DNA of 64,000 nt from a virus, in IMG/VR virus record IMGVR_UViG_3300046463_000247, positions 34,046-98,045 of that record, one strand, 5' to 3'. The translations under genes and the position numbers were made by a program. Positions 2,521-63,163 of the stretch are shown here, one piece after another. Position 1 is the stretch's first letter. Every line of letters starts with the position of its first letter. The notes beneath the pieces are model-generated. The model saw only the letters and a list, made by a program, of their open reading frames with translations. It was not told the origin of the DNA and did not search any database.

Positions 2521-2548
2521 GCTTACCCCTGTGCAATTGATTGCAAAA

Positions 2549-3553
2549 TTACGGACGCACCACCACGCCGAACGGCAGGTTCTCTGCATCGTCCAGTGTC
2601 CAGTCCCCGCCGCCCGGAGCCTTGTCGTAGAAGGCGTAGTACATGGCCCAGTCCGTACTCAGGGTCGGTTGCACCACTTCCAGTTGCGCGCCGGGTCCGC
2701 CGAACACCATGCCCAGCTTGCGGTTGTCGATGTCAGTCTTCTTCGCCTGGGCGATCAGGCCCACGGCCAGCACCTGCGAGCCATCGGGCAGGGCAGCGGA
2801 CGACGAGAAGAGGTCCATCGCGCCGCTCACGCCAGACTGGATGTACTTGCTGCCGTCAGCGGGCAGGGAGTTCACCATCTTGTAGTGATCGCTGCCGGTG
2901 GACGGGCTCCATACCGGGGGCGCGCTGCCGCCCGAGATCACATAGTCCGCGTCAGGCAGGCGCGTCGTGATCTGCATCGGGTGCATGCGGCTGTTGATGC
3001 CCGAGGACGCGTCGCACGTGTAGAAGTCGGTGTAGCGCAGTTCGGTCGCCTTGGTCGCGTCGTACGCGCCGTTCGGAGCCAGCACCAGGTCATACGAGGT
3101 CTGCGCGGCAATCGCCGGATCGAGGTCAGCGGATACGTCTAGCGAGTCGTTGACGTAAATGTTCAGCTTCTTGTTCGCGCGGTCCACTTCCAGTTCGTAG
3201 TAGTACCAGACGTTGCGCGCTGGGATCGCCGTGCCGTTGACGCTGCCAACCGAGATTCCGGCGTGCCAGTCGAGTTTGACGCCCGCGATGCTCGCGATAG
3301 GCGCGCGCTCGGTGCCCTTGAACGCGAAGCCCACCCAGAACATGTTGGCGTTGGTGTTGATGGTGCGCCGCACGCCGGGCGCTGCCGCAGCCGTCGCCTG
3401 CTGGAAGGTGAGCGCGGTCGAGTTTGCGATGCGCCCCGGCTGAAGCGCGACGTTCGGCACCGGGTTGACCCAGCCCGCATTTGCCAGCGCAATCGCCAAA
3501 TTCGAAGCGGAGAGCCCATTGAACTGGGCAAAGCCATCCATGTGGAGAATCAT
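2549..3553 (-). CDS. Chi-like tail fibre/tip-associated protein
   Basis: MILHMDGF N-terminus; paralogous to 1483..2520; tail context. Confidence 0.7.
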   Translation of the reverse strand: MILHMDGFAQFNGLSASNLAIALANAGWVNPVPNVALQPGRIANSTALTFQQATAAAAPGVRRTINTNANMFWVGFAFKGTERAPIASIAGVKLDWHAGISVGSVNGTAIPARNVWYYYELEVDRANKKLNIYVNDSLDVSADLDPAIAAQTSYDLVLAPNGAYDATKATELRYTDFYTCDASSGINSRMHPMQITTRLPDADYVISGGSAPPVWSPSTGSDHYKMVNSLPADGSKYIQSGVSGAMDLFSSSAALPDGSQVLAVGLIAQAKKTDIDNRKLGMVFGGPGAQLEVVQPTLSTDWAMYYAFYDKAPGGGDWTLDDAENLPFGVVVRP

Positions 3554-3556
3554 CTG

Positions 3557-4291
3557 TTACCCCAGCAGCGTAAGCCGCAAATTGATGCCGATATTCTGAA
3601 AACTGTCCGGGATTTCGTTCGGACAAAGCAGGCTGAGTGCGTCACCCAATGCGAAGACCGTCGAGGTCGCCACGGAGAAGACGCCATTCACCCCATCCTT
3701 CGGGAAGGTGATCGTGCCGACCTTCACCAGCGCCCGCTCAATCGTGATGATCACGTCATCTTCTACGAGCGGTTGCATCAAAATTGCGGCCGATCCCTGC
3801 GCATTGGGCGGCAGTATAGCGGGTTGCAAGTTCGGAATAAACATAATCCGCTCGCCCGGATTCGGCTTAAACATGGCCGAACAGCCGTACTGGAGATAGT
3901 GATTCTGGGCGGGCGGGCCGGTCTGATCGACGGGCGCTCCGGTGCCTGCATCGAGCCACGCCTTGCCGTCGAACCACACCAGCTTGTCGTCCAGCGTCTT
4001 GACACGGAACTGCCACCCGTAGGACGGTTTGAAGAACTTCCACTGGCCTTCGATCTTCACCGCGACTTCGAGGTCATGGCCGGACCACGCCTGCACGGAG
4101 TTCGGCGCACAGATGAAGCGGTCCCCTTCGAGCGCGGTCTGCGGCGGCTGCGCGAGCGTGATCGACTGCACCGCGCCGTGTAGCAGGGTGTCGATCTTGA
4201 CCATGTTCTCGGTCATCGGCCCACCCCAACCGTTTTCCCCCGTGACCCAACCTTCGGACAAGCCTAGGTTGGGCGCTTTCTTTTCTGGCAT
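3557..4291 (-). CDS. DUF2793-domain tail protein
   Basis: PP...EGDRFI...AWSGHD..VAV...GQWKFFKP..GW motif typical of DUF2793; position after the tail tip. Confidence 0.7.
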   Translation of the reverse strand: MPEKKAPNLGLSEGWVTGENGWGGPMTENMVKIDTLLHGAVQSITLAQPPQTALEGDRFICAPNSVQAWSGHDLEVAVKIEGQWKFFKPSYGWQFRVKTLDDKLVWFDGKAWLDAGTGAPVDQTGPPAQNHYLQYGCSAMFKPNPGERIMFIPNLQPAILPPNAQGSAAILMQPLVEDDVIITIERALVKVGTITFPKDGVNGVFSVATSTVFALGDALSLLCPNEIPDSFQNIGINLRLTLLG

Positions 4292-7200
4292 TTAAGGCTC
4301 CGTTGGGTTTTCTACAAAAGGTTCGCCCTTATCCCACCCGCGCGACCAGTTCAGACCCCAGCCATACTCCTGCGGGGGCAGTCCACCGCCACCGTTACCG
4401 GAGCCCGGGTCACCGTCAGGTGGCGGGTTGTGCGGGTCAGCCGGGTTGTTCTCGTCGGGCGGCGTATTGCTCGTGCTGTCCGGGTTGTGCGGGTCCGGCG
4501 TGCCGGGGCTCGGGTTGCTGCCTGGCGGGCCGGGCGGCGGGTAGGGCGGCGGTGCGGTCGGGTACGACGGCCACGGCCCGCTCGAACTGGGCTCCTGACC
4601 AGGAGGCGTCTGGTACGGACCGACCACGAACACCCACATGTCGTACGGTTGCCAGCATTCGATGCCGTCGCGGATCGACTCCAGCCGCAGCAGCAACGCG
4701 TGGTTGTCGTCCAGATTGGGCTTGGGCGAGATCGCCATCCCGTTCTTGACCAGGTTGTCGTAGTCGATCTGGATCGCCGCGCGCCGGTCGTAGTAGGCCG
4801 CGTCGAACGCGTACTCCATGCTGTGCCCGGTCAGCCCGGCATAGGTGCGTAGCGTGATCAGCCCGGTCGGCCCCTGCGTCATCACGCGCACGCGGTAGGT
4901 CGTGCCGTTCTCTTCAGCCACGTCCGGGTCGGTGTGGCCGTAGGGCGTCATCTGCTGGGTAATGCGGTTGCGGCCCACCCAGGACAGCGTGATACCGCCG
5001 TCGCTGATGACTGCGCTGTCGAACCACGGGCGCGGACCCTGCGTGCCGTCCTTCATCGAGCGCTGGCCGCTCACCACCACCTGCGCGGGCGGGTAGGGGC
5101 GGGTCTGGCGCGCGCTCGCGATCACGAGGATGCGGGTGTCCGACTGGGGCACCGTCATACCGGGAAGGTCGGGCATGAACGCGAGGTACACCTTGTCCTC
5201 GAAGTAGTGCGCCTTGCCGTCGTCCGCCCAGTTGCAGATTGTCTGCCAGCGCCAGGCGAGCGTACCCGCGCCGTGGATCGCCGGGATCGTGTCGTAGCAG
5301 CCACGCTGAATGCCCACCACGCCGTGCGCGGGGTCCACCGACGTGATCACGACAAGCTCCAGCCCGAGGAACAGCATGTCGCCGACTGCCCAGCCGGTGC
5401 CCGCGAGGGTCGGGCAGTACATGAAGGCGTCCAGTTGCTTGATGTTCTGGCGTATCGGCACACCGTCCTGCCGGAACACCAGCGGGTAGCCTTCGACCTT
5501 GGCGACGCCGGTCGTGAACGGGTACGACGCGTCACTGGTGACGAACTGCTTGGTCCCGTCCGTGTAGGCCAGCTTGTAGCCGGGGCAGGGGTACTTGCGG
5601 TCGTTGATCGAGTTGGTGCCGATGTACGAGATACGCGGGTTAGCCAGCCGCAGCGTGTCCGCCGCGCCGGAGATCGACGCGAGCGGGGCGTAGGGAATCT
5701 CGTAGGCGATGGCCGTCTGGTTGTAGCGCAGCCCCGGTGAGCCGGGCACGGGTTGGCCGTCCCACAGCGAGGGGTCCACGAGGACGATGGCGGTGCGGTA
5801 GGGCTGGTAGCTCTCGTAGCCGTCCGGGCTCACGGTCGTCAGTTCGACCTGCACGACCTGCGGCGTGTGGTAGTCCACGCCATTCGGGCCGGGGTACTTC
5901 TCGCACAGCATCTTCTGGTCAAGCTGCGCCTGGTACGCCGAATAGAAGTAGAACGGGTCGGTGCCCTGGTAGTCTGCCAGTACGTCGTCGCCCGCCTTCA
6001 TGGTGAGCCGGTAGAAGCAGCCGGGCTCCAGATTGCAATCAGTTGCAAAATGGTCCACCACCGTCGTCGCCTGGGACAGCCGGTCACGGGGCTCCCACGT
6101 GAAGATCGTGTCGTAACCCTTCTGCACGTTCGCGCCGACAAACCACGGGTTATCGTTGATGCGGAACAGACCGGGCGGGTAGGGCCGGTGGCTGCGCGCT
6201 TCGATCAGTTCCGGCATGACGCCGGTCTCGTACACCTGCTGCTGATGCGCGATCAGGTCGGTATTGACGGTCTGGTCTTCGAGGTAGTTGCGCCCGTCAC
6301 TGCCCAGCGCGTTGCGCTCGAAGAACCACATGGTCGTGCCGCTCGCGTGCGACGCCGGGATCGTGTCGAGACAGCCGCGCTTGAGCTTGATCGAGCCGTG
6401 CGCGAAGTCGATGTCCACCACCTGCACGACTTCCGCATTACGCCCGTTACTGGCTTCCGAGAGCATCGCCAGCGCGCCCGGCTTCATGCCGCCCAGTGAC
6501 GTGCCGTCGCGGAAATAGACCTGCGTGTCGAATGGCTTGATGTCCTTGGGGATCAGCGCGCCGCTCTGGTTGTACGTCGGGGGCCAGCCGGTGACCGTCG
6601 CAGCCGGGGCGAACGTCGCGGTGGCCCGCTCCCGTAAAGTCTCACCTGAGCCCTGCACCGCTGTTGCCACGCCGTAGTCGGAGCCCGTGATGGTCTTCGG
6701 GTCGCGCAGCATCGCCGTGCCCACCTGATACGAGAGGTCAGCGCGTCCCGCCGCCAGAGCGCTGTAGTAGGCCCACTCGTAGATAAAACCTGCGGATAGT
6801 CGCGTCTGGTTGTCCGGGGCATCGGGCGGCACAATCAGGCCACCGTCATCCCACTGGGCGGGACTCGCCAATATCCGCATTAGCTGTTTTGCTTGCATCT
6901 GGTCCAGTGTGATCGTGAACGGCATGCTGTAGCCCTGCCAGGACTCCCAGCCGTCACGCACCGAATACAGCGCCACCCCGAGACCGTGGCTCGTGCCCGG
7001 CTCGGTGATGTTCGACCGGAACCAGTCGTACGGCAGTTCGAAGTGGTTGTCGGTCGTGGAGAACGACGCGAACTTGACCCCGTTCGAACCGTACAGGTCG
7101 ATCACGTACTGCACGCCCGCTTCCGGCCCGATGTCGCCCATCAGGTGATCAATCACCTTGTCATTCTGGCCGACCCGATCCCGGTGCGCCCACGTGAGGT

Positions 7201-9188: not shown

Positions 9189-9435
9189 CCTGTACTCCCT
9201 GTTCAGCGGCTGCGCGGGCCGTTGCAATCAATTGCAAAGCCAGCACGTCCTTCGTCTTGTCCAAAATCTCGGATGCCATCACGCCCCGCTGCACGAACTT
9301 CCGCCAGTCGAGCCCGCGCTGTTCCGCCCACTGCCTGCCGCCTGAGACACATACCTTCTGCCCGCCGATGCGCACCATGCGCATGTGCGTCGTGGTGACC
9401 AGCACGTCTTCGAGCCCATCCTGAGCCAGTGCCAT
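9172..9435 (-). CDS. Small Chi-like tail assembly protein
   Basis: C..G.R.W....GLDW..FV..G motif; conserved position before the tip gene. Confidence 0.65.
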   Translation of the reverse strand: MALAQDGLEDVLVTTTHMRMVRIGGQKVCVSGGRQWAEQRGLDWRKFVQRGVMASEILDKTKDVLALQLIATARAAAEQGVQDGMRV

Positions 9436-11099: not shown

Positions 11100-12497
11100 T
11101 TATGGGTTGGGGAACATCGCGGGCATCAGGTTCGTGTCCCACAACCGGTCTGGCTGCGGCCATTCGGCCACATCCCGGATCGGCCACGGGCCATCGTTAC
11201 TTGCTGCCTGCTGGTTGCGGTTCTCGAACGTTTCCTTGAACGTGAGCACCACATCAGCTACGCCGTTCACATCCGTAATGTGTTCGATCTCAATCTGGTC
11301 CTGATCCAGACGCACGAGAACCAGGAGGCAAATCTTGCGGATTTCCTCAATCTGGTAGTCCTTGTCGAGCGTCGAATCGAGGGTGAGCCATTCTACAGAT
11401 TCCTCGGCGCGCGAAGCAATGACGCGGCGGTAAACGGGCGGTTTTCCGACGAAAAAGATTGCGATGTAGGTCGAGGTGCCCTGGTCGAAACCGTACTGCG
11501 TGTAGCCACACTTCTTCACGCAGATAGCCCCGTCCACGCGCATGAGCGGCTTCTGGAGCACGAAGTCTTCGTTCCACGACGGCACGTAGAACGGGTGCCG
11601 CGAGCCGCGCACGCCGTGCAGGAACATCAGCATCGCGTAGTAGTCGGCGACGCCGTACAGGGTGTAGCGGAACTGCAAGCTGGCCCGGCCATAGCGCGCG
11701 GTCGTGTATTCGAACGGCAGCGCCACCTGCTGATCCAGCTTGTCGAGCAGGTAGGTGTAGCCGTTGGTCTGGTCCTCGCGTTCATTGGGCGGGATCGCCA
11801 TCACCTCGAAGACGTTCAGCGAGTTCTGGAGAATCGCGGGCGGCACCACGGTCGGCTCCATCAGCCTGAAGCGCAGTTGCGCCCTCGAAATGGTGGACGT
11901 GGTGCGGGTGATCTGCGGGTCGGTGTCGAGTCGTGCGACCTTGAGCGGGAACACGCGGGTGCCAGCAGGCCACGACCGGGCGTTCGGGCTGATCGTCCAC
12001 GGCCCGGGGATGTTGCCCTCGTAGCCGCCGATGCGCACGAGTTCGAAGTCCGTCAGGTAGTTGCCCAGAATCAGCATCATCGTGCCGGGCATCACGTCCG
12101 GCCACGCCCCCACCCCGACATTCATCGTCGTGCTGGCCGGTCGCAGCGACTCCACCAAGTTCAGCCCCTCGTGCCACATGGGCAGCAGCCAGTCAGATTC
12201 GTGCGCACGCTGAAGCGACAGGTCCATCGCCACGCGGTACTCGTCGTAGACCAGGTATTCGGCTTCGAGCATGCGACGCGGCGCAAGCCGTTTGGCGTTG
12301 CGCTGTTCGGCCCCGATGGGGTTGTCCAGGATGTCCGTCAGGAACTGGTACGTCTCGGTGACGCTGTTATCCCAGTTGGGCGGCACCAGCCATACCGGCA
12401 GGTTGGCGACCGCCGCGAACGACGGGATGGGCGGGATTTCCCCGCTCCACGCGTCCTGTGGGTAAGGCTGTACGTCACTCCATGTTTGCCACGTCAT
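11100..12497 (-). CDS. Distal tail / tail assembly protein
   Basis: PNW...VTE.Y.FLTDIL...GAEQR..R..PRR motif; immediately follows the tape measure gene. Confidence 0.65.
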   Translation of the reverse strand: MTWQTWSDVQPYPQDAWSGEIPPIPSFAAVANLPVWLVPPNWDNSVTETYQFLTDILDNPIGAEQRNAKRLAPRRMLEAEYLVYDEYRVAMDLSLQRAHESDWLLPMWHEGLNLVESLRPASTTMNVGVGAWPDVMPGTMMLILGNYLTDFELVRIGGYEGNIPGPWTISPNARSWPAGTRVFPLKVARLDTDPQITRTTSTISRAQLRFRLMEPTVVPPAILQNSLNVFEVMAIPPNEREDQTNGYTYLLDKLDQQVALPFEYTTARYGRASLQFRYTLYGVADYYAMLMFLHGVRGSRHPFYVPSWNEDFVLQKPLMRVDGAICVKKCGYTQYGFDQGTSTYIAIFFVGKPPVYRRVIASRAEESVEWLTLDSTLDKDYQIEEIRKICLLVLVRLDQDQIEIEHITDVNGVADVVLTFKETFENRNQQAASNDGPWPIRDVAEWPQPDRLWDTNLMPAMFPNP

Positions 12498-16997: not shown

Positions 16998-17378
16998 TTA
17001 TTCCTTCAGTAATTCATTCAGGGTTTTCACGAAATCCTTGCCTTCCTGCGTGTGCGCCACCGACCGGTCTATCGTCGCCTGGGTCGCCATCCACGCCTTG
17101 CGGCGCGCGAACGCGGCTTTCACGAGGTGATCAATCGTGCGCAGCGAGTAGCCCCAGATGTCCTGCAACCGGTGCCCCTCACTGGCAAGGAATTCAACAC
17201 TTTCGACCCATGAGTCCGACAGTTCCTCTACGCGGAGAGCAACGGCTCGGTCGATGGCGTCAACGGTGCTGCTTCCTGAGTTGCTGCCTGCGGCTGCTGC
17301 TCGATCCTGGCGCTGGCGTTCTTGCCAAGCTGCCGCAGCGCCGCCGTCGCCTCGGACAACAACTCTTGGAGCTTTTTT
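16998..17378 (-). CDS. Tail assembly chaperone frameshift extension (gpT-like part of gpGT)
   Basis: Open -1 frame entered at the A_AAA_AAG slippery site; ends 2 nt before the tape measure start. Confidence 0.7.
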   Translation of the reverse strand, partial: KKAPRVVVRGDGGAAAAWQERQRQDRAAAAGSNSGSSTVDAIDRAVALRVEELSDSWVESVEFLASEGHRLQDIWGYSLRTIDHLVKAAFARRKAWMATQATIDRSVAHTQEGKDFVKTLNELLKE

Positions 17379-21093: not shown

Positions 21094-21157
21094 TTTTCAC
21101 CTCTCAAACGTGGATTGGAAAGCGCGGCGAATATATGCCGCTGTGCAATTGATTGCA

Positions 21158-24209: not shown

Positions 24210-24255
24210 GACTAGACTCCGTGCAATTGATTGCAGCGGAATCTAGCAGAGAGGA

Positions 24256-37949: not shown

Positions 37950-37952
37950 GCT

Positions 37953-38870: not shown

Positions 38871-38898
38871 GCTGAGGTCCTTTCTGGTTGGTATCGGG

Positions 38899-39228: not shown

Positions 39229-39242
39229 GGTTGGTCCCTCGA

Positions 39243-46539: not shown

Positions 46540-46553
46540 TTGATTGCAGGTGG

Positions 46554-47451: not shown

Positions 47452-47730
47452 CGTTCGGTTGCCCTCTGGGTTGTGATTGTGTAAGGGTCATTGTGCCCTC
47501 ACTGTAAGGGATTGTCAAACGCTCTTTGCAATCAGTTGCAAAAAAGCCCCTTGCGGGGCCGGGTGTTGCGGTGGAGTGCGGGCGCGATCAGATACGCAGG
47601 AGTTTCGCCGGGTGCGCGGTCCGGTAGCTCGTGTCGGGGGTGTGCCGCTCGGGCGCGCGGGGTGCCTCGGCCTTCAGCAGACCGACCGCCAGCAGGAACC
47701 CGGCGACGAGGCCGATCAGGATTCCGCGCT

Positions 47731-48060: not shown

Positions 48061-48535
48061 TTCCGCACTCCTTGCGCAGTTATCTGATGCTTTTAATTCT
48101 AGCGCAAGCGTGCGGCGTGTCAAACAGACTTTGCAATTCTTTGCCGGTCTTTTGTAACACGGTGTTCTATTTCCGGGCTAGAACTTCACGAAGCCGGGAC
48201 GTTTTGCAATTGATTGCACGGGCATTCGGCGAGGCCGCGCCATTCGAAGCCGCCGAGCCAGCCGCAACTCCGAAGGTCCGTGCCGCCCGCTCGACCCACT
48301 TCCTTGGCCTTGCCGTTCTCGACCTCGATATAGGCGACGGTGCCCTCTTCGTTCGTCAGCCCGGCGCGCTCGTACTCGAACGGCGAGCCCTTCCAGTCCC
48401 GCTTGCGGACTTCGTACCAGCCGCTGCGTGCCGGAGGCTCACCGCTCACGTTGAACCACTGGGTGCGCGGTGCGGTGGCGAACGGCTCACGGATCGCGAG
48501 GATCGTCGGGTCGGTCTTCATCTTCATGGGCGTGC

Positions 48536-52300: not shown

Positions 52301-52499
52301 ATACGTGGCAGCGTTCCAGTCTACCGTGCCCACCAGCGACGGCACAGCCTTCACCACGTGCTCTTCGAAGGCGGTCATCCACTCGGCCTGCTGCTCTGCT
52401 TTACTCTTCGCCATGTTCACTCCTTGAATGTGGCTGTTTTGAACTAAAGCCAGTATAGCACAATCGCTGGTTTAGTCAAACATTTGCAATTGATTGCAA
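49377..52499 (+). repeat. 48-bp direct repeat (47/48 identical) at 49377-49424 and 52452-52499
   Basis: AGTATAGCACAATCGCTGGTTTAGTCAAACA(A/T)TTGCAATTGATTGCAA, i.e. promoter plus palindrome. Confidence 0.9.
51785..52414 (-). CDS. Hypothetical protein; first of a coupled run of ~9 short ORFs extending to 49432
   Basis: Hairpin SD after the promoter at 52452-52479; downstream ORFs overlap by ATGA/GTGA. Confidence 0.6.
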   Translation of the reverse strand: MAKSKAEQQAEWMTAFEEHVVKAVPSLVGTVDWNAATYYFGLGKTAEEAASAHVAAMTPKAPESDDRFDPKTYTMDKGTQTGRTPAPITVHAKRIFEIAKLLNPVYEQVDTAFQNLFGPDMDGEKLMREWAEACYQYNRVAGGFLREIAILTGNNPETLEQVFRPRDAYSTFPTPTFIANVARYESFNDKLWTKYSGMEREPTNDFGPL

Positions 52500-53253
52500 C
52501 TCAGGTCCACGAGTGCATCACGGCGAAGTTGTCGAGCGCACGCAAGGCGGTGCGGGCCAGCGCCAGTTCACTGCCGATGCGCTTGTCGATCTCGGTCTGC
52601 ACGACGCCCTTGTCTGGCCCCTGCCTGCGGCGCACCACCGCCACGTCGGGCTGGTCGAGGAACGTGAGGGCGCGGGTTAGCTGATCACGAATGCGGTCGA
52701 TCTCGGCGCGCTGCTTGCGGGTCAGGGTTGCCATCGTTGCGCTCCAGTTGGACTACGCGCCCAGTCTAGCCCACCGCAGTGCGGCGGCGAGCGTCAAGGT
52801 CACTGCATGTTTCGCCAGCACCTTCAGGTCGTCTTCGATGTAGATGGTTTTCGGCATGAACGACCATGCGTCGATGCGGGCGTGGTAGTAGCGCAGCGCG
52901 CGGCTGTGCAGCCAGAAGTTCTTGTACACGTAGGGGAGTTCGCCACCCCAAGGGAGTGGTGTTTTCAGGCCGGGTGCGTAGGTGCGGACCTGGTAGCGCC
53001 ACGAATGGGCACCTGTGCGGTCGGATACGAGGGCGATCTCCGCGATGCCCCCGCTCCTGACCTGGACCAGCTTTCTGAGGCCGTTTTTCACTGCCGACTC
53101 CTTCGGGTTGTGTGGTTGCCTGAGACACAATTTAACACAACCCTGCGGTTAGTCAATCAGTGCGGTCGGTTTTTGCAATTGATTGCAACTTTTGTGGCGG
53201 ATTCCACGCGTACAGCCATGCGCGCCACCACAGCGTCGTGAGCGTCAGCAGGC

Positions 53254-53697: not shown

Positions 53698-54642
53698 GTC
53701 TTGTCCTTTGCAATTGATTGCAGAATTCAGTCTTCGCCCACGATCACCAGCAGCACGGCCAGTAATGCGGCCAGCCACGGCATGTGAGCGGCGATGGCGG
53801 TCATCAGCGCGATAAACACGGGCACGACGACCATCACGTTCTCCCCTGTGCGCGGCAGGCGCGGCAGCGGGTCCCGCTGTATATCCACTTCCCGCATTTC
53901 CTCACCTTGCACTTCTTCACGTCGTAGCGGGGGCGTCCACCGCCTGTATGCCGCCGCCAGAACTCTTCGCGCCACGCCATCTGCGCCATCAGCCACGCCC
54001 ACATGAATCGGATCATGCCCCCTCCTGTGCGAATGCCTCCTGCCTGGCCTGCGTCTGCTGGTACATGCTCGCCTGCATCATGACCGCATGGAAGGGCTCG
54101 GCAGGTATCAGGTAGAACGACCTACCGGCGTAGGCCAACGGGACCGGCTGGGCGCGATCTGCGTGCTTTGCCAGGGCATCCATGGCGCGCTTGCGCTGCC
54201 ACGTGGCGAAGCCCCAGCCCACTACGAACGCGGCGGCTACGGCGAGGGCGATCATTTCAGCACCCCACCCACGATCCACACGATCATCGACACCAGCGAT
54301 GCGGAGCCGACCATAAAGACGCGGGCCACGCCCGTCCAGTCGTCGGACGGCCACAGCACGGACCACAGGTACAGCAGCACGGTCACCAGCAGCGGCACAT
54401 GCCACCATGCGAGGTCGAAAGCTATGTGCATGTCGATCCCTTATTTGACGTGTGCGCCGACCCACTCACCCGCCGCCCACGCGGCGACCGGCTGGCCGTC
54501 CCTGCCCCAGATGACCAGCACCCCGGCGTCGATCTGGAACGACATGCCCTGCACGGTCTCCCGCACCATCTTGCCGTCACGGCGCATCGTCACATCGAAT
54601 TCCGTTTCCTGCGTATTCGGTTTCTTGCTCATGGTCGGCCCC

Positions 54643-56097: not shown

Positions 56098-56179
56098 TAT
56101 GTCTGGTCCTGAGTTTTTGCAATTGATTGCAAGACGCCGTACCCCTACGACGCCCTGTTTGCTGCTGAATCTGGCGGCT

Positions 56180-58048
56180 CTAGTCTCTCTTAACTTTGGC
56201 CGATTCCTGCGCGATTCTAACCGATTCTGGAACTCGCACAAGCGGAATGTTGAACGCGCCCCAGATTTCCCGGCGCATCGTCAGTCCGTACTGCACGCCG
56301 GTCATGGCGTCCGAACAGTCCTTGCTGCCATTTGGCGGGTGGTCGATCTTCTTTCGAATCACGTCCTTTTCCAGCGTCAGGAACTCCTTCTGGGCCACGG
56401 CGTGCGCCGGGTGCGAGATACGCCCGTCGAGGAAGGCGCTCTTCTCCATTTCGTACGGCAGCATCGACGTGTCCATCGAGATATAGCCGGTCGTGTAGCC
56501 CTTCTGGCGGAATATCTGCATCGAGTCTACGGACTGGAACGAGTCGAAGCTGATCCAGCGGATATTGATGCCGAATACATCTTTGAGCTTGTACACGAAG
56601 TCACGTATCAGGTGGAACTTGATCTCGTCCCCGGTCGGCGGCACGACCCGCAACGTGAAGTCGTAGTGGAAGTCCGGCATCACTTCTTCCACGTCGTTGG
56701 CGAGGGTCTGCTTGAAGCCCTTCACCGTGCCCATGCTGACGCCCGCCGCATCACCCGTGACACCCAGGTCGATGTGCACCCAGCGCGGCAGGTCGGGCCG
56801 ATAGATGTGCTTGCGGATCACCTTCAGCGGGCCGGTATCGGTGCCGACTGCGACGCCATCGAAGCAGTGCTGCTCCTTGTTCAGGATCGACGCGTGCGTG
56901 CCGAATCCCGCCACGACCTTCTCGTGGTTCAGGATGAACGGGAAGCGGGCCATGGTGGCGATACCGGCGATGTCGCGCAGCGCGCCAATGATGTCGCCGT
57001 CGAACTGGTTGCGGTGCTCGACCGGCACTTCGATCACCAGGTGGCGATGGTCGGCAGGCACCTCTTCCACGGTCTGTATGAGCTTGGGGCGGGTCACTTC
57101 GTCCCCGGCATAGACGAGGAAGCGTTCACCACTGTACGTGCCCGCTGGCTTGATTTCCCACACGCGCTTGTCGTACACGTAGATCGTCGGGTCGGTGGCT
57201 GCTGCCGCCTGAATCTGGTCGGTGAGCGCACCCGGGTAGTTCTTGGACGACACCATGCACAGGATGCCGGGCTGTCCGCCGTTGTTGACGAAGCGCGACT
57301 TGATACGGCGGCTGATGCTCTCGTAGATCACCTTGGCCTGATCGTACACCCCGCCCTGCCCGCCGTTGCCCTTCTTCGAGTTCTGCACCACCTCCATGAA
57401 GTCCACCTCGTCAATGATGCCGCCGATCACGTTCTGACCGATGGCCCCACCGTCGCTTGTCATCGGCTTCGCCTCAACCCGGTTCGGGAAAATCAGCGCC
57501 GACTTGATGTCCTTCTTGTACGGGTACACCGTGTTGAAGTAGTACGACTGCTCGATGATCGCCCGGAAGCGCGTGTAGTCCACGTCGGACGCGAGCGCCG
57601 CATTCATTGACTGGAAGATCACGAGGATTTCGGAGGTCGAGTCCAACTGGAACATCGAATGCGGGCTCTTGTAGCACGAGGTCAGGTATAGCTGGTACGC
57701 ATTCACGTAGAGCGCCGTGGTGGTCTTCGCCGAGCCAATGCCGCCCGTGAACACGCCCTGCGTCCAGCCATTCGTGAGCCGTCCGTTCTTCTCGTTGATG
57801 GCGATCAGTTCGTCCACCACAGCCGGGTACAGTTCGGATTTGGGGCGGGCCAGAAAGTGCTTGCTGAACAGGAATTCCTCCACGTGCACCGGGTACGTGT
57901 GGATGTTCAGGGCGTGGCGTAGCTGGTTGACGTTGCCGTCGTCGTACGCGCGCTCGATGCCTTCCAGCAGGAAGGTCCGCAACTCGGGGTTGTTCACGCA
58001 CGCAGCCGCCGCCTTGACCTTCTTGTAATCTAGGGTTTTGATGTCCAT
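56180..58048 (-). CDS. terL: Terminase large subunit
   Basis: Walker A TGGIGSAKT, Walker B IIDE, nuclease HIDLG..D and DH...GSKD.SDA. Confidence 0.9.
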   Translation of the reverse strand: MDIKTLDYKKVKAAAACVNNPELRTFLLEGIERAYDDGNVNQLRHALNIHTYPVHVEEFLFSKHFLARPKSELYPAVVDELIAINEKNGRLTNGWTQGVFTGGIGSAKTTTALYVNAYQLYLTSCYKSPHSMFQLDSTSEILVIFQSMNAALASDVDYTRFRAIIEQSYYFNTVYPYKKDIKSALIFPNRVEAKPMTSDGGAIGQNVIGGIIDEVDFMEVVQNSKKGNGGQGGVYDQAKVIYESISRRIKSRFVNNGGQPGILCMVSSKNYPGALTDQIQAAAATDPTIYVYDKRVWEIKPAGTYSGERFLVYAGDEVTRPKLIQTVEEVPADHRHLVIEVPVEHRNQFDGDIIGALRDIAGIATMARFPFILNHEKVVAGFGTHASILNKEQHCFDGVAVGTDTGPLKVIRKHIYRPDLPRWVHIDLGVTGDAAGVSMGTVKGFKQTLANDVEEVMPDFHYDFTLRVVPPTGDEIKFHLIRDFVYKLKDVFGINIRWISFDSFQSVDSMQIFRQKGYTTGYISMDTSMLPYEMEKSAFLDGRISHPAHAVAQKEFLTLEKDVIRKKIDHPPNGSKDCSDAMTGVQYGLTMRREIWGAFNIPLVRVPESVRIAQESAKVKRD

Positions 58049-58142
58049 TTCGTGAGTGCGTCGAGTAAGTCCGCGCGATTCTGCACGAACCCGACCCGGA
58101 AGTCACGCACTCACTTTTGCAATTGATTGCAACGGACGTTTC

Positions 58143-58361: not shown

Positions 58362-58766
58362 GCTTCACTCCTTGAAGTCTTGGGTTGGCCCGCCGAAGCG
58401 GTTGTCATTCACATTGATCTTGCCGCGCCTCTAGGATCAGGCGCACGCATTCTGCTATGGCTTCGCCGCGCCGATACGTGCGCGGGCTTACGCCGACGAT
58501 GGACCACAGGTGCGTAAAGTCGTCACGCTCAACAAGAAATCTTCCTACCCGGAAGGTTGTGCGACGAACCCATTTACCACCTAGCTTGACGCGCACTGCG
58601 TTGTCCGTTGAGACCGTGATCGAGTTGATGCTGGCTAGGTCGATTGCGTCGCGCTCGTTCATCGTCATTCCCCTTCGTTGTTGGTAGGTGCCTTTTGACA
58701 CCGTACCCCTAGTTTAACCCAACGCGCCGGGATTGTCAAACACACTTTGCAATCAATTGCAAAATA

Positions 58767-59690
58767 TCACTGCCCCCGTGGTGGCACTTCGTCCACCGGC
58801 CCCGCGTCTTTCGTGGTGCGGGAATTTGCAATCAATTGCAAAAACTGATTCATGTCGTTCTCGTCGCTGTACGAACCCTGACGGCCCGTGTTGATCGCGG
58901 CAAACGGATCGGTCGGCGCGGCAATCTTGAACAGGCCCACGCGGGTCAGGAAGTTGTGCTTGGCGTCCTCAGCCCGCAACGCCACCTGCAATGCGGCGAC
59001 CTGCACCTTGCCCTCCCGCTTCTGGTCCATTGCCATCCGCAGCGACTGGGTGCGCACCTCGTCGTACAGGGCCATCGACATGCCGATGTAGGTCGGGTAG
59101 TCGAAGTTGCGCAGTTCCTCACGCATCGCGAATTGCAGCGCCATCCGGTCCTCGTGCACCTGCCGCACGGTCAGCGCCAAGTGGGCGGCGATGGTCTTCG
59201 TCGGCACGCCGTTCAGCATCAGTCGCAGCACCTGCTTGCGGCGGAACTCGATGTCCTCGGCAGTCGGCTTGTGGCGGCGTCCATCTGCGGCCAGCTTGAA
59301 CTCGCCTGCCCGTTGCGAACCCGTGCGCGGCACCTTCGCCTGATCCAGCAGGGCGTCCAGTTCCTCGGCGGTCTGCGGCACCTCGCGGCCCTTGGTGGTC
59401 GGCGCACCGTACGCCCCGCCATTCAGGTCGATACTCGCGTCGGGCAAAATCTCTTCCACCTTGAGGCTCGGGCGACCCACCCGCCCACGTTTCTTTTTCC
59501 CGTGCGAGGCCCCGGCAGGCTGCGACGGGCCAGCGACCGGGGATTTGACGGTGTTCGGTGGGGTACTGAAGTCCACGTCCTCTACTTGTGGGGAGTTGAA
59601 CGTCAGTGTGGGCAGGTCGTCTTCTTCGTCGGTTTCCTGTTTACGGTCAACGACTTGCGACGGTTGCTTGGTGAGGAAGTTGAGTGCCAT
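58767..59690 (-). CDS. Putative terminase small subunit / HTH DNA-binding protein
   Basis: RRKQVLRLML.G.....IAAHL.LTVRQV..D HTH; AT-hook-like KRGRVGRP; upstream of terL. Confidence 0.55.
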   Translation of the reverse strand: MALNFLTKQPSQVVDRKQETDEEDDLPTLTFNSPQVEDVDFSTPPNTVKSPVAGPSQPAGASHGKKKRGRVGRPSLKVEEILPDASIDLNGGAYGAPTTKGREVPQTAEELDALLDQAKVPRTGSQRAGEFKLAADGRRHKPTAEDIEFRRKQVLRLMLNGVPTKTIAAHLALTVRQVHEDRMALQFAMREELRNFDYPTYIGMSMALYDEVRTQSLRMAMDQKREGKVQVAALQVALRAEDAKHNFLTRVGLFKIAAPTDPFAAINTGRQGSYSDENDMNQFLQLIANSRTTKDAGPVDEVPPRGQ

Positions 59691-59955
59691 ACGCTCTATA
59701 CGGGTATCGGGTGGTGGCCTTCCCTCGATATGTAGCTTATCGCTATCTATAGCGGGGAATACCGTAAAGTTGGCGCATGGTATCGGTTGCTGGTTGATGG
59801 GTCAATCTATGGGTGTTTCCTCTCTATGTGTGTCTAGTGTATTTAGTTCTTTCGCCCGCAAAGTTGCCCACCCTCGAATTGCAATTGATTGCAGCCGACA
59901 ACAAAAAAAAAGCCCGCACGGGGCGGGCATGAAGTACTGCTGTTGCTACGTGGTT

Positions 59956-60447: not shown

Positions 60448-61810
60448 GCGGGCACCTGTTCGAGTTGATGGGCTACCCGTAGGATTTCCCCGTGTGAGAC
60501 CGTGCGCAGCATTTCCGAGCGGCCACGCTTCACGTATTCGTCCACCGACATCTTGCGCCAGTCCGGGTGCGGTCGGTCGTTGCACAGCGTCCACGGCGCG
60601 TCGGGGCTCGCCCGGCGATGCACATAGACGCCCACCGAACGATGCAGGCCCAGCCCGAAGAATTCTTCCGCCGTGATCCTGACCTCGGAGCCGTCGTCCC
60701 GCTTGATGGTCTGCACTGCCTTTGCCATTTCAGTCCTCCAGTGCTTTCAGCACCTTCTTCAGTTCTTCTTTGCCGTATTCCGTCGCGTGTACCTGCTGCG
60801 TCGCGATGGTGTTCAGTTCTTCGATGATCGCGGTCAGGGTCTCCCTGTTATCACCCCGCATGCGCTTCACCAGGTCGCGCAGCTTGTCGAGCGGTTCTTG
60901 CAGGAAGTCTTCGCTGGGGAACTGGCCCATTGCCTCATGTACACAGGGCGCTGAGGCCACCGCCTCGCTCAGTAGTGGCGCAACATCCAGCAGTTCCTCG
61001 ATCCGGTCTGCGGGCAGGGTGCCGGTCAGACTGTAGACCTCTTCGTCGGACAGGCACGAGGTGGCTTGCGGGTTGAACCGGGTCAGCGTGCCACTCGTAG
61101 CGGGTTTGGTGATCGTGAGCATTCGGGTCAGTGTTCGTCGCAGTAGAAGTCCACAGCCAGCGCGTACTGCGGGTCCAGGATGCGGATGATGGTGCCGAAG
61201 TCATCCGTGGTTTGGCGTGCCCACCAGAGCGCGCTGAAGTACAGGTCGCTTGGCATCACCGGCTCTTCGGGAATGCCCAACCGCCACGGTTGCGGTCGAA
61301 GTAGTAGGCGGTTATTGCGTCGTCTTTCACGTGAGCGTTCAACGCGCGGGCGGCGTCCTTGTGGTTGTTCAGGTACAGCCAGTTGATGCAGTCGTCCGTG
61401 TTCTTGAACTCGCGCAAGTCCTTGCCGTCTTCGTCGGACAGCAGCACACCTGCCGTGCCGTCCCACGCGTGCCAGTTCTGGAAGATGAAGGGTTTCATAC
61501 CGACCCCCGTCCCAGCGTCACGCACTTCTCACGCATCGTGCACGCGCCACCCTCACACGACTCACACGGTGCGCAGTCCTTGTCGAGCGGCTTGCCGTTG
61601 AAGCCCTGCATGTACATGACGTGCTGCGCGCCGGTCTTGCCGATGCTCGTGGGTGCCCAGCCGTAGGCGCGGTGCTTCTGGCCCATGCCATAGCACTGCT
61701 CGTCGGTCGGGCAGGTATCGAGTTGGTGCTGAAGTTCAGCGAAGTTGATTTCGGGCATTCGTAGCTCCTGCAATCAATTGCAAAAGCCCGCGCATGGCGG
61801 GCCGGGTTCG

Positions 61811-62107
61811 TTACATGAGTCCGAGTTCGCGGGCTTCGTTGAACAGGCGGAATTGGTCGCGGGTGCGGTTGGTCGCCTGGAGTTCGGTCGCGCCGTTCGC
61901 CATCAGTTCGGCGATCACCTCAGCGCGGAATTCCGGGGAGGTGTAGTACTCGGCGTCCGACTGGCGCGTCACAGCGTCTTCCTTGGCAGCAATCTTCTGA
62001 ATCTCGCGCTCCGAAAACACGTTGGTGCGACCCGTCCGGTAAATCGGCTTGAGGTCGTGGCGGCGGATGATGGCGAGTTCTTCTTTGGAGAGGGCTACCA
62101 GGGACAT
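61811..62107 (-). CDS. Hypothetical protein
   Basis: First gene after the TTGACA-16-TATAAT promoter, with hairpin SD. Confidence 0.6.
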   Translation of the reverse strand: MSLVALSKEELAIIRRHDLKPIYRTGRTNVFSEREIQKIAAKEDAVTRQSDAEYYTSPEFRAEVIAELMANGATELQATNRTRDQFRLFNEARELGLM

Positions 62108-62415
62108 TTGCGACTCCTTCGCATGTGTTGGTTAAGTCAGTGAGAGAATTATAACCCACCCAGCCGGATTGTCAAACATTCTTTTCAGAAAGGCGGGCCG
62201 AACTGCATCGCGTGGACGATGGCCTGACGCGGCGTCGGCTCGCGCTTGAAGTTGTTGCCGCCCACCCACGGCTCGGCCTCGCTATACTGGGTCTGGGTGT
62301 GGAACACGGCGTAGCCCTCGTGTGCGTGGTCCACGTACGCTTCGTTGGCGATCAGCCACCCCAGCATTTCGGTGTCGGTTCTGGTCTTCATGTCGGTTTG
62401 CAATTGATTGCAACG

Positions 62416-63081
62416 TCAGGCGGCGAGCGCCTGCGCTTTAAGGTGAGGTGCATTGTGCAGGAATACGGCCTGTGCGAACCCCATTGGCGTCGCGCTGCGG
62501 ATGTTGCCACGCTCTTTCGACGGCGGGGCCTTGTGGATGCGGTCGTCAGGTACGCCCAGCGACAGGTCCTCGCACTTGGGCGGCATCACGAAGTCGCCAA
62601 TCGGCCAGATTTGCGTGTTCTTCGTGTAGTTGTCCTCCGCACAGTAGCCCGTGTAGTGGTGCGGGTGGAACGAGTGCTTGGCCTTGCCGAACACGCGCGA
62701 CAGCACGCTTACCGGATTCTCCACCAGCCCGGCTGCGCCGCTCAGTTCGGCGATCATGCGGCACTGCTCGGCCACCGCGACGGCCTTCGCCTGGAACATC
62801 GGGTCGAGTGAGCGCTTGTGCTCGAACCACCGCGCGCCGGAGACGGCCATGTCCGTGCAGGGCGGGAAGCCTGCGACGAACACCACGTTTTCTTCGCGGA
62901 TGATCCGGCCCAGTTCGCGCACGCAGCCCAGTATCGTGTACGGGTAGCGCCGGATGTTGCCGCTGATCGAGAACACCCCGTGCTGCCGGTCCACCAGCAC
63001 TGCGCGGTAGCCCGCCTTTACCCAAGGTTCCACGAAGTTGCCCGTGAGGTCGCACAGGCTGATAATCGTACCCCTATCCAT
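62416..63081 (-). CDS. Small phage DNA cytosine methyltransferase (Dcm-like)
   Basis: ISLCD.TG (motif I), FPPCT (motif IV), ENP (motif VI), YTK.T, RSATP.GFA. Confidence 0.75.
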   Translation of the reverse strand: MDRGTIISLCDLTGNFVEPWVKAGYRAVLVDRQHGVFSISGNIRRYPYTILGCVRELGRIIREENVVFVAGFPPCTDMAVSGARWFEHKRSLDPMFQAKAVAVAEQCRMIAELSGAAGLVENPVSVLSRVFGKAKHSFHPHHYTGYCAEDNYTKNTQIWPIGDFVMPPKCEDLSLGVPDDRIHKAPPSKERGNIRSATPMGFAQAVFLHNAPHLKAQALAA

Positions 63082-63163
63082 TGCCGGTCCTTTTGGTCCA
63101 TTTTTGTTGTCGGCATTCTAGCTGGCGGCGGTTTCCCTGTCTCGCCTTTTGCAATCAATTGCA

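What the first reader, a model, noticed from the sequence alone, without database searches (positions are those of the whole stretch)
2532..63163. Genome-wide lattice of a 14-bp near-palindrome, TGCAAT(TG/CA)ATTGCA, written into coding sequence
Seen in sequence: at least 33 exact copies and 2 one-mismatch copies, about one per 2 kb across the structural, replication and accessory regions, often extended to TTGCAATnnATTGCAA. The central dinucleotide is always TG/CA (23 copies TG on +, 10 CA on +), so the site is asymmetric but used in both orientations. About 16 copies sit inside genes, including tape measure, tail chaperone, tail terminator, adaptor, MuF (two copies), the PPDK-like gene and terS. 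They occur in all frames (LQSIA, LQLIA, AINC, AIDC, CNQLQ) and force AT-rich codons into a GC-rich genome. A rough expectation assuming ~64% GC is about 1e-4 copies per window. Established: mycobacteriophage stoperators are mostly intergenic and oriented, whereas dispersed intragenic palindromes are typical of chromosome-organising sites (parS, matS, SlmA/Noc sites). Inference: a dimeric protein coats the whole phage chromosome here, acting as a silencer/roadblock or in genome organisation, protection, segregation or packaging/ejection, or these are programmed nick/modification sites. Candidate binders in the window: the Zn-ribbon/wHTH protein (35145..35579), the HTH terS-like protein (58767..59690) and the Myb-like protein (46826..47128).
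Basis: partly seen in the sequence, partly recalled or inferred. Interest (0 to 1): 0.92.

Follow-up and report, generated by a model that had tools for sequence, protein, structure and literature searches.

The report
Phage-wide lattice of protein-binding palindromes
A 98-kb phage carries 50 identical, evenly spaced copies of a 14-base near-palindrome that is kept, even inside genes, across a wide group of phages of Vibrio, Rhodobacter, Rhizobium and Stenotrophomonas, and it is most likely the docking site of a previously unnoticed phage protein that resembles the DNA-binding part of plasmid partition and silencing proteins.

Summary
The window has 33 exact and 2 one-mismatch copies of TGCAAT(TG/CA)ATTGCA, and the whole 98,045-bp genome has 50. 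None are expected by chance.

It is not private to this phage. The same site, or variants with matched changes in both arms, occurs 13-50 times in diverged ~80-100-kb siphophages with 38-62% GC. These include the cultured phages DLP5, Summit, SIO-2, RcZahn, RHph_TM16 and RcTiptonus.

- Sites are spaced more evenly than chance.
- About 60% are intergenic, against 13.5% non-coding DNA.
- A subset ends 4-20 nt upstream of sigma70-type -35 boxes.
- Copies inside genes keep all 14 bases at orthologous positions while neighbouring codons drift. TG/CA flips change the encoded residue, so selection acts on the DNA.

The best candidate reader lies outside the window, at genome 10735-11538. It is a 267-aa protein of no Pfam family, present in every lattice-bearing phage examined. 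Its model matches ParB/KorB DNA-binding domains at middling scores. Its recognition helix changes where the motif changes.

The function, KorB- or stoperator-like control or chromosome organisation, is inferred. Another window of this genome was flagged for the same motif earlier in this scan.

The parts
2532..2545 (.). Exact site at a gene junction. It lies 3 nt after the TAA stop of gene 2549..3553 and 11 nt before an ATG with an RBS.
6034..6047 (.). One-mismatch copy, TGCAATCAGTTGCA
9223..9236 (.). Exact site at a junction between tail genes, upstream of the start of 7665..~9190
12683..12696 (.). Exact site inside the tape measure gene 12497..16996 (peptide LQSIAK)
17414..17427 (.). Exact site inside gene 17228..17704 (peptide VQLIAI)
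19274..19287 (.). Exact site inside gene 18908..19342 (LQSIAI). The position is kept in G001, DLP5 and Summit, with all 14 nt identical.
19997..20010 (.). Exact site inside gene 19781..20677 (LQSIAE)
21144..21157 (.). Exact intergenic site, directly after the terminator-like hairpin and T-run that follow the capsid gene 21216..22157
24222..24235 (.). Exact intergenic site 12 nt upstream of the protease gene 23583..24209. The position is kept in G001, DLP5 and Summit.
24615..24628 (.). Exact site inside the MuF-like gene 24411..26039 (LQSIAG). Orthologues have unrelated residues here.
25641..25654 (.). Exact site inside the MuF-like gene (LQSIAN). The same position holds a site in DLP5 and Summit, and in G001 the centre is flipped (LQLIAN).
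28079..28092 (.). Exact intergenic site between the DNA polymerase gene 28153..30540 and the portal gene 26021..27937
31414..31427 (.). Exact site inside gene 31189..32136 (VQSIAD)
33959..33972 (.). Exact site in the N-terminal part of gene 33012..34064 (VAINCK). G001 has a site at the same position; DLP5 and Summit have other residues.
36427..36440 (.). Exact site inside the PPDK-like gene 35615..37606 (AAIDCK). The position is kept in DLP5 and Summit, and flipped in G001 (AAINCK).
38908..38921 (.). Exact site at the junction of gene 38899..39288 (last codons) and the ligase gene 37953..38912
40073..40086 (.). Exact site ending 8 nt upstream of the -35 box of a TTGACT-N16-TAGAAT promoter
41794..41807 (.). 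Exact intergenic site, 5 nt after a stop codon
43171..43184 (.). Exact site in the last 29 nt of gene 43142..43459
45205..45218 (.). Exact site in the last codons of gene 45189..45392, ending 12 nt upstream of the -35 box of a TTGACA-N16-TAGAAT promoter
46535..46548 (.). Exact intergenic site directly upstream of the RBS of gene 45994..~46520
47527..47540 (.). One-mismatch copy, TGCAATCAGTTGCA
48205..48218 (.). Exact intergenic site
49410..49423 (.). Exact site ending 5 nt upstream of the -35 box of a TTGACT-N16-TATACT promoter
52485..52498 (.). Exact site ending 5 nt upstream of the -35 box of a TTGACT-N16-TATACT promoter
53174..53187 (.). Exact site ending 17 nt upstream of the -35 box of a TTGACT-N16-TAAATT promoter
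53709..53722 (.). Exact intergenic site between a TGA stop and the next RBS and ATG
56118..56131 (.). Exact site just downstream of the large terminase gene 56180..58048, upstream of the next gene's ATG
58118..58131 (.). Exact intergenic site upstream of the large terminase gene
58748..58761 (.). Exact site 5 nt after the stop of 58767..59690, ending 8 nt upstream of the -35 box of a TTGACA-N17-TAAACT promoter
58827..58840 (.). Exact site inside gene 58767..59690 (LQLIAN)
59880..59893 (.). Exact intergenic site after a terminator-like hairpin and T-run
61769..61782 (.). Exact intergenic site between a terminator-like hairpin and the next RBS
62399..62412 (.). Exact site at a gene junction, 7 nt before an ATG
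63150..63163 (.). Exact site immediately after the TAG stop of gene 63164..63952

Best explanation
The 14-bp element (16 bp with its flanks: not-A, TGCAAT, TG or CA, ATTGCA, not-T) is a double-stranded binding site. It is read by a phage-encoded, probably dimeric, DNA-binding protein and is kept as an evenly spaced array over the whole chromosome.

The most likely reader is a 267-aa protein encoded outside the window, at genome 10735-11538 on the - strand (DLP5 gp066 is its orthologue). It is the last gene of the recombination/replication module. Its model shows three parts:
- residues ~57-166: a helix-turn-helix domain of the ParB/KorB/Noc/SopB type;
- residues ~175-223: a ribbon-helix-helix-like domain that would make the dimer;
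- no ParB N-terminal CTPase domain.

At about a fifth of the sites the protein would sit 4-20 bp upstream of the -35 box of strong sigma70-type promoters. That is where KorB sits at its promoter-proximal operators, so there it probably controls initiation. The other sites lie at gene junctions, after terminator-like hairpins and inside genes. They would act as roadblocks or insulators, or as anchors that organise or coat the episomal or replicating genome.

Shown here: the enrichment, conservation across the clade, selection at the DNA level, even spacing, placement next to promoters, matched arm changes, co-occurrence with the protein, and fold resemblance.

For: 1. Enrichment. 33 copies in the window and 50 in the genome, against 0 in shuffles.

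2. Conservation across a clade. Exact copies number 47, 40, 25, 13, 13, 26 and 26 in seven diverged relatives with 38-62% GC. These share no megablast-level DNA identity with the window and only 25-60% protein identity. Cultured SIO-2, RcZahn, RHph_TM16 and RcTiptonus also carry the lattice; reversed-pattern controls gave 0-2 for SIO-2, RcZahn and RcTiptonus, and for RHph_TM16 the evidence is its recurrent exact palindromes.

3. Selection on the DNA. At orthologous coding positions all 14 nt are identical while flanking codons differ. The centre flips TG<->CA, changing S<->L or D<->N. Where an orthologue lacks the site, its residues are unrelated.

4. Even spacing. CV is 0.44-0.68 against ~0.97 for random placement in six of eight genomes, and 0.68 against 1.12 under a null that keeps the intergenic/coding split.

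5. Intergenic excess, P=2e-14.

6. Promoter adjacency. 9 of 30 intergenic sites end 5-20 nt upstream of a -35 box (P=2e-7), and none lies within or downstream of a promoter. G001, G004, G005 and G003 show the same pattern with gaps of 4-9 nt. KorB represses from an operator 4 bp upstream of -35 (PMC11790492).

7. Lineage variants change both arms together, which points to a two-fold symmetric reader that evolves with its sites.

8. The 267-aa protein is found in all seven relatives. Cultured phages that carry a homologue carry the lattice. RcTiptonus was examined only because its cluster appeared among the homologue's hits (28% identity, E 3e-11); it turned out to have 27 sites, 19 of them TGCAATCGATTGCA.

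9. Fold. The model has pLDDT 81. Residues 57-166 match the ParB DBD-parS complex at Z 7.1, KorB at Z 6.8 and 6.2, Spo0J at Z 6.1, and SopB, P1 ParB, VirB and StbA at Z 4.5-4.9. Residues 175-223 match RHH folds at Z 3.4-4.5.

10. Recognition helix. S-R-K-A-x-Y-L and L-G-W-T-K are almost invariant across the clade. The exceptions coincide with altered motifs:
- RTI with GGCAAT arms;
- SKA..H with TCCAAT arms;
- D or Q at position 100 with CGCAAT arms;
- RTA..Q plus VPWSK with the TGCAAC-AT-ATTGCA site of RHph_TM16.

Against: - No binding experiment exists. The fold Z-scores (6-7) are middling for an all-helical protein, and an unrelated helical protein (Raf1) scores as high.
- There is no sequence-level match to Pfam or to PDB chains.
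- The helix/motif covariation is confounded by overall divergence and is not a clean code. L172 has mostly GGCAAT arms with an unchanged RKARYL helix, and L215 has the 13-bp site with an unchanged RKA.
- All comparison loci were chosen through this protein or through the motif, so there is no negative set. The whole recombination module is co-inherited, so any of its other proteins would co-occur equally well.
- Only 9-10 of 19 promoters have a site, and 80% of sites are not at promoters.
- Strict asymmetry of the centre (TG/CA in 50 of 50 copies) and consistently asymmetric arms in some lineages (CGCAAT-TG-ATTGCA) are not what a simple symmetric dimer predicts.
Confidence: 0.5

Rival explanations
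1. The sites are bound by a different phage protein, for example the immunity repressor of these temperate, plasmid-borne phages. They would work as stoperators do in Cluster A mycobacteriophages, or as C1 operators do in P1, silencing promoters and blocking read-through in the lysogen.
For: - The density, one site per 2-4 kb, mostly in short intergenic gaps of a one-strand genome, matches the description of stoperators (PMC9283540).
- DLP5 and DLP3 are temperate and DLP5 is kept as a phagemid (PMC7326821).
- A MerR/excisionase-like HTH gene (genome 15745-16179) sits in the same module and was found in 6 of 7 relatives.
Against: - The MerR-like HTH varies freely among phages that share the identical motif. 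It was not found in the low-GC subclade or in L176, which still carry sites.
- The sites are two-fold symmetric and used in both orientations (35:15 here, 18:22 in G004). Stoperators are asymmetric and depend on orientation.
- The lattice is also present in SIO-2, which I recall as lytic (my recollection, not checked).
Confidence: 0.15
2. The sites are substrates of an enzyme and not docking sites. Candidates are programmed single-strand nicks as in T5-type phages, a site-specific modification, or crossover sites of a recombinase whose polarity is set by the asymmetric central dinucleotide.
For: - The sequence spectrum in this genome is extremely sharp: 50 exact, 2 one-mismatch and 0 two-mismatch copies.
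- The central step is strictly non-palindromic.
- The sites co-inherit with a recombination module: RecA-like recombinase, Cas4-like exonuclease, two resolvases and a ligase.
- The genome encodes two ParB_N proteins, one fused to a methyltransferase.
Against: - In related phages the site is degenerate, or its centre is a perfect palindrome (TA or CG), with the same density. The asymmetry is therefore not essential.
- The ParB_N-methyltransferase is shared in full only with G002.
- Fifty recombination sites in both orientations would scramble the genome.
- No candidate nickase is conserved with the motif.
- Placement at a fixed short distance upstream of -35 boxes is not expected for nick sites.
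Confidence: 0.12
3. The element works as a hairpin in RNA or single-stranded DNA, for example as a processing, pausing or translational-control signal, or as a priming or packaging signal. The matched arm changes would then be compensatory stem changes.
For: - All genes are on one strand, so every copy is transcribed.
- Many copies lie just upstream of ribosome-binding sites.
- Variants with both arms changed keep the base pairing.
Against: - The hairpin is weak, -4.4 kcal/mol with typical flanks, and no better than about 10% of shuffles.
- The two orientations give different loops (UCAA and UUGA) at the same orthologous position.
- In several lineages the commonest variants are asymmetric and would put a mismatch in a 6-bp stem. 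Examples are TGAAAT..ATTGCA, CGCAAT..ATTGCA, TGCAAT..ACTGCA and TGCAAC-AT-ATTGCA.
- Copies upstream of promoters would lie at the extreme 3' end of the preceding transcript or be untranscribed.
Confidence: 0.05
4. The sites are read by a conserved host protein, such as a nucleoid-associated or global regulator, that the phages exploit.
For: - The arms fit the general TGnAAn..nTTnCA shape of LacI/GalR-type operators (my recollection; a lead only).
- The site contains ATCAA, part of the IHF core.
Against: - The same site is kept in phages of Vibrio, Rhodobacter and Stenotrophomonas, and in genomes of 38-62% GC.
- Closely related phages carry private variants with both arms changed, which a shared host factor would not allow.
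- The IHF consensus is not completed by the flanks (read directly).
Confidence: 0.05

Closest known systems
KorB and its OB operators on IncP plasmid RK2
   Same: - Many copies of a short palindrome (13 bp there) are scattered over a ~60-kb mobile replicon.
- Some operators lie directly upstream of the -35 box, and KorB represses from 4 bp upstream of it (PMC11790492).
- Other operators lie far from any promoter.
   Different: - The candidate reader has no ParB_N CTPase domain, so it cannot be a CTP-gated sliding clamp.
- No ParA/IncC partner is encoded.
- A KorA-like locking partner is unknown.
- The sites are four times denser, evenly spaced, and also written into coding sequence.
- There is no detectable sequence similarity.
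Stoperators of Cluster A mycobacteriophages (L5 gp71-type repressors)
   Same: More than 20 near-identical short sites are spread across a phage genome, mostly in short intergenic gaps, at about one per 2 kb. The phages are temperate (PMC9283540).
   Different: - Stoperators are asymmetric 13-mers bound by a monomer, and they work only in one orientation relative to transcription.
- Here the arms are two-fold symmetric, both orientations occur, the putative reader has a different fold, and the hosts are Proteobacteria.
- The motif is kept across far more diverged phages.
ParB-parS, Noc-NBS, SopB-sopC and the dispersed centromere sites of plasmid prophage N15
   Same: - The sites are 14-16-bp palindromes read by a dimeric ParB-type HTH domain.
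- The sites are dispersed on a replicon that relatives of this phage keep as an episome. DLP5 is a phagemid (PMC7326821).
- The N15 and Noc details rest on my own knowledge.
   Different: - There are only a few sites per replicon, not 50.
- Those systems work with CTP-dependent spreading and, for partition, a ParA ATPase. Neither is present here.
C1 operators of plasmid prophage P1
   Same: A ~94-kb plasmid prophage carries well over a dozen repressor operators dispersed around the genome (my own knowledge, not checked here).
   Different: P1 operators are asymmetric 17-mers that overlap promoters. Here most sites are away from promoters, and those near promoters lie upstream of the -35 box.

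Membership tests
ParB/KorB-type centromere or operator system | Short palindromic DNA site (13-16 bp) present in several copies on the replicon | tested here: met
   A 14-16-bp near-palindrome occurs 50 times. The arms change together in relatives.
ParB/KorB-type centromere or operator system | Reader with a ParB-type helix-turn-helix DNA-binding domain | tested here: inconclusive
   The model of the 267-aa protein matches ParB, KorB, Spo0J, SopB, P1 ParB and VirB DNA-binding domains at Z 4.5-7.1 over residues 57-166. Foldseek gives probability 0.6-0.7 with E>1. There is no Pfam or PDB sequence match.
ParB/KorB-type centromere or operator system | N-terminal ParB_N (CTP-binding) domain in the same protein | tested here: not met
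   Pfam finds nothing in the protein. ParB_N occurs in only two other genes, at genome 4904-5125 and 5602-5814. The first 30 residues of the model are disordered and are followed directly by the helical DNA-binding domain.
ParB/KorB-type centromere or operator system | Partner ParA/IncC-type ATPase | tested here: not met
   PF13614 finds no match in the genome at E<=0.1, while the control search rang in 14 of 14 genomes. Only this one ParA family was searched.
ParB/KorB-type centromere or operator system | Binding of the protein to the site | not testable with these tools
Stoperator system of Cluster A mycobacteriophages | More than 20 near-identical sites spread over the phage genome, mostly in short intergenic gaps | tested here: met
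   50 sites, 30 of them non-coding against 13.5% non-coding DNA.
Stoperator system of Cluster A mycobacteriophages | Asymmetric site bound by a monomer | tested here: not met
   The arms are a perfect inverted repeat, and relatives change both arms together.
Stoperator system of Cluster A mycobacteriophages | Site orientation tied to the direction of transcription | tested here: not met
   The centre reads CA:TG 35:15 here, 18:22 in G004 and 3:10 in G005. Orientation also flips at the same orthologous position.
Stoperator system of Cluster A mycobacteriophages | Reader is the immunity repressor | not testable with these tools
   No immunity data exist for this phage.
Programmed nick sites (T5-type) | Strand interruptions at a consensus sequence in virion DNA | not testable with these tools

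The most novel reading that the evidence does not exclude
The lattice may be a phage-private system for marking the chromosome. A ParB-type DNA-binding protein without a CTPase domain would nucleate at evenly spaced sites and coat or organise the whole phage genome. In some lineages this protein carries histone-H1-like Ala/Lys/Pro tails (G002, RcTiptonus).

The purpose would be something other than promoter control. Possibilities include:
- an orientation-free, protein-read counterpart of Chi that protects replicating concatemers from exonucleases;
- organising recombination-dependent replication;
- segregating the episome without a ParA.

The gene's fixed place at the end of the RecA/Cas4/RuvC module fits this reading.
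Probability: 0.25. Interest if true: 0.9.

Novelty: new variant of a known kind. Interest (0 to 1): 0.8.

Why it matters
- It would add a third, independent case of whole-genome operator arrays in mobile elements, after KorB on IncP plasmids and stoperators in actinophages. This one occurs in a large and widespread clade of ~80-100-kb siphophages of Alpha-, Beta- and Gammaproteobacteria.
- The clade includes phages considered for therapy against Stenotrophomonas and for aquaculture use against Vibrio.
- The system comes with its own natural experiment. Dozens of lineages carry altered sites and altered recognition helices, so a protein-DNA recognition code could be read directly.
- A 14-bp site kept letter for letter inside unrelated genes shows how strongly a DNA-level signal can override codon usage and protein sequence.
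- Practically, the motif is a simple marker for recognising members of this clade in metagenomes.

Tried and rejected
- **Near-identical DNA in cultured phages.** Megablast of 12 kb found none. Relatives were reached through proteins instead.
Pfam found only a sub-threshold HTH_23 hit in 58767..59690 and nothing in 35145..35579 or 46826..47191. None of those compared is conserved with the motif.
- **MerR-like regulator (genome 15745-16179).**
- **Half-sites alone.** Orphan TGCAAT/ATTGCA hexamers occur about as often as expected, 32 against 23.
- **RNA hairpin.** It is weak.
- **Sequence search of the 267-aa family against PDB chains.** Only chance-level hits.
- **Protein atlas.** Scores up to 0.87, below the 0.9 level; leads only, to DUF3102 and DUF1016_N/ParB-HTH clusters.
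- **Bacterial genome collection.** Only seven MAG loci were found, so no host assignment was possible.
- **A negative control set.** I looked for phages with the Cas4-like exonuclease but without the 267-aa protein. The exonuclease hits are a subset of the same clade.
- **tRNA scan.** None found in the genome.
- **Literature.** Neither the 14-mer nor its 12-mer core appears in a phage context. The DLP3, ValSw3-3 and Rhodobacter-phage papers do not mention such a repeat. Subscription journals were not searchable.

Full report
**What is there.**
The centre is always TG or CA (23 and 10 on the + strand), and no match occurs in 100 dinucleotide-preserving shuffles. The window is bases 34046-98045 of a 98,045-bp IMG/VR virus record with 62.4% GC. 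The whole record holds 50 exact copies. There are only two one-mismatch copies, both in the window, and no two-mismatch copies. All genes are on the - strand. The flanks extend the site: position -1 is never A and mostly T, and position +1 is never T and mostly A.

**Placement.**
After start codons were refined by RBS, at most 20 of the 50 sites lie in coding sequence, although 86.5% of the genome is coding (P=2e-14). Many intergenic copies begin 0-11 nt after the stop of the upstream gene.

The genome has 19 matches to tgtTTGACW-N16/17-TAnnnT on the coding strand and none on the other strand, so these are real sigma70-type promoters. Nine of them have a site ending 5-20 nt upstream of the -35 box. 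That is 9 of 30 intergenic sites where 0.9 is expected (P=2e-7). No site lies inside or within 70 nt downstream of a promoter. Other copies follow terminator-like hairpins or sit just before ribosome-binding sites.

Spacing is more regular than chance. CV is 0.68 against 0.97 for random placement, and against 1.12 when the intergenic/coding split is kept.

**The motif belongs to a clade, not to one phage.**
The portal protein finds Stenotrophomonas phages DLP5, DLP3 and Summit at 50-58% identity, although 12 kb of DNA finds nothing by megablast. An unbiased k-mer count in DLP5 gives the very same 14-mer as the top repeat, 26 times.

Five large IMG/VR contigs found through the motif carry 47, 40, 25, 13 and 13 exact copies, at GC contents of 55, 52, 61, 38 and 60%. 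With some of these the window's genome shares only the replication/recombination module. Spacing is again regular in most of them.

Cultured phages further away also have the lattice:

| Phage | Sites |
|---|---|
| Vibrio phage SIO-2 | 24-26 |
| Rhodobacter phage RcZahn | 19-25 |
| Rhizobium phage RHph_TM16 | mainly TGCAACATATTGCA |
| Rhodobacter phage RcTiptonus | 27, of which 19 are TGCAATCGATTGCA |

Reversed-pattern controls gave 0-2 for SIO-2, RcZahn and RcTiptonus. RHph_TM16 was identified from its recurrent exact palindromes instead. I found no mention of the element in the searchable literature.

**Selection is on the DNA.**
Sites sit at the same relative position in orthologous genes of phages that are only ~40-55% identical in protein:
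- the PPDK-like gene at 0.58 of its length;
- the MuF-like gene at 0.24;
- the replication initiator at 0.82;
- a tail gene at 0.13;
- the gap upstream of the protease gene.

In codon alignments all 14 bases are identical while neighbouring codons differ. At two positions the centre is flipped between phages, which turns LQSIA into LQLIA and AIDC into AINC. Where an orthologue lacks the site, its residues are unrelated. The strong preference for one frame, 14 of 20, fits a DNA signal placed where the imposed peptide is tolerable.

**What kind of reader.**
Sixty-nine IMG/VR loci around homologues of one module gene show a family of variants:
- GGCAATCAATTGCC;
- TCCAATCAATTGGA;
- the 13-bp TGCAAC-A-GTTGCA;
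- centres TA or CG;
- CGCAATTGATTGCA;
- TGAAAT half-sites;
- degenerate forms.

Changes that hit both arms together point to a two-fold symmetric reader that evolves with its sites. They would also fit a hairpin, but the hairpin is weak (-4.4 kcal/mol). The commonest variants in several lineages are asymmetric and would break a 6-bp stem. The two orientations also give unrelated loops at the same position. A host factor is unlikely given host classes from Vibrio to Rhodobacter and the lineage-private variants.

**Which protein.**
Only the replication/recombination module is shared by all eight genomes first compared. It comprises DnaB, primase, an SSB-like protein, an SF2 helicase, a 132-aa unknown, a RecA-like recombinase, a Cas4-like exonuclease, RuvC and a 267-aa unknown. 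A MerR-like regulator is shared by six of the seven relatives.

The MerR-like HTH varies freely among phages with the identical motif and is absent from a subclade that has sites.

The 267-aa protein (genome 10735-11538, - strand; phrog_17202; no Pfam family) has two almost invariant segments, S-R-K-A-x-Y-L and L-G-W-T-K. Its AlphaFold model has pLDDT 81. It matches DNA-binding domains of the ParB family: ParB-parS at Z 7.1, KorB at Z 6.8 and 6.2, Spo0J at Z 6.1, then SopB, P1 ParB, VirB and StbA. A ribbon-helix-helix-like unit follows. The invariant S-R-K-A-x-Y-L segment is the start of the second helix of the helix-turn-helix.

The rare departures from it coincide with changed sites:
- RTI with GGCAAT arms;
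- SKA..H with TCCAAT arms;
- D or Q at position 100 with CGCAAT arms;
- RTA..Q plus VPWSK in RHph_TM16.

The strand of the RHH-like unit varies among canonical-motif phages, so that unit more likely makes the dimer than reads DNA.

RcTiptonus was examined only because its cluster appeared among the homologue's hits. It has a 28%-identical homologue, and it carries 27 sites.

In RcTiptonus and G002 the protein has long Ala/Lys/Pro tails like those of histone-H1-like proteins. About 270 homologues exist, mostly on 90-120-kb contigs. The closest, at 75% identity, is on a 98.8-kb contig of a Burkholderia ubonensis assembly.

**Limits.**
- The Z-scores are middling for helical proteins.
- There is no sequence-level link to ParB.
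- The covariation is not a clean code and is confounded by divergence.
- There is no negative set, because the module is co-inherited.

**How it probably works.**
The protein lacks the ParB CTPase domain. The genome has ParB_N only in two unrelated genes and has no ParA. It is therefore not a canonical partition or sliding-clamp system.

At promoter-proximal sites the geometry matches KorB's proximal operators, from which KorB represses (PMC11790492). The regular spacing, the copies forced into long genes and the H1-like tails suggest a wider role over the whole chromosome: roadblocks or insulators in the episomal prophage, or organisation or protection of replicating DNA. DLP5 is kept as a phagemid (PMC7326821).

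My confidence in each step:
- about 0.8 that this is a protein-binding lattice read by a phage protein;
- about 0.3 for any one function.

**Comparison and novelty.**
The nearest known systems are KorB/OB on RK2, stoperators of Cluster A mycobacteriophages (PMC9283540), dispersed C1 operators of P1, and ParB/Noc/SopB sites. This system shares the logic of many identical sites on a mobile replicon. It differs in four ways:
- the sites are symmetric, unlike stoperators;
- the sites are denser, evenly spaced and written into coding sequence;
- the motif is conserved across phages of different host classes.

I class it as a new variant of a known kind.

Noticed in passing
whole genome; in the window e.g. 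62175, 58739, 52479, 49404, 45192, 40064, 37635, 34130, 32197: Nineteen near-consensus sigma70-type promoters (tgtTTGACW-N16/17-TAnnnT) all point in the direction of the genes, and none is on the other strand. The -35 box is extended by a conserved TGT. Several promoters are followed by a conserved 'caaggagtg' ribosome-binding region.
   Followed up: partly
genome 10735-11538 (outside the window, 22.5 kb before its start); L123:6794-8161; L246: Homologues of the candidate reader in G002 and in Rhodobacter phage RcTiptonus carry long Ala/Lys/Pro-rich tails like those of histone-H1-like proteins. RcZahn and RHph_TM16 homologues are ~405 aa, with N-terminal extensions that were annotated as 'ribonuclease E/G family'.
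   Followed up: partly
P0001: The closest homologue of the candidate reader (75% identity) lies on a 98.8-kb contig of a Burkholderia ubonensis genome assembly. This suggests a Burkholderia host and carriage as an episome.
   Followed up: no
genome 3596-7092 (outside the window): An operon encodes two ParB_N-domain proteins, one of them fused to a methyltransferase, next to a 398-aa protein with no Pfam match. A full-length relative of the fusion was seen only in G002. It may be a DNA modification module.
   Followed up: partly
It contains no tRNA. DLP5 and Summit have tRNA genes about 2 kb downstream of the orthologous gene, whereas this phage has none at all.
   Followed up: partly
window 32194-38912: A block comprising a PPDK-like kinase, two phosphatase-like genes, a 350-aa unknown, small genes and a DNA ligase is shared with G001, DLP5 and Summit but not with the more distant lattice-bearing phages.
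   Followed up: no
window 48123: One promoter has only a half-site (ATTGCA) 9 nt upstream of its -35 box, not the full palindrome.
   Followed up: no
G002 (L123-L128): In this relative the commonest form is a hybrid site with one TGAAAT arm: 37 one-mismatch copies against 25 exact. The variant arm lies about twice as often on the T side of the central TG, so the two half-sites may not be equivalent.
   Followed up: partly
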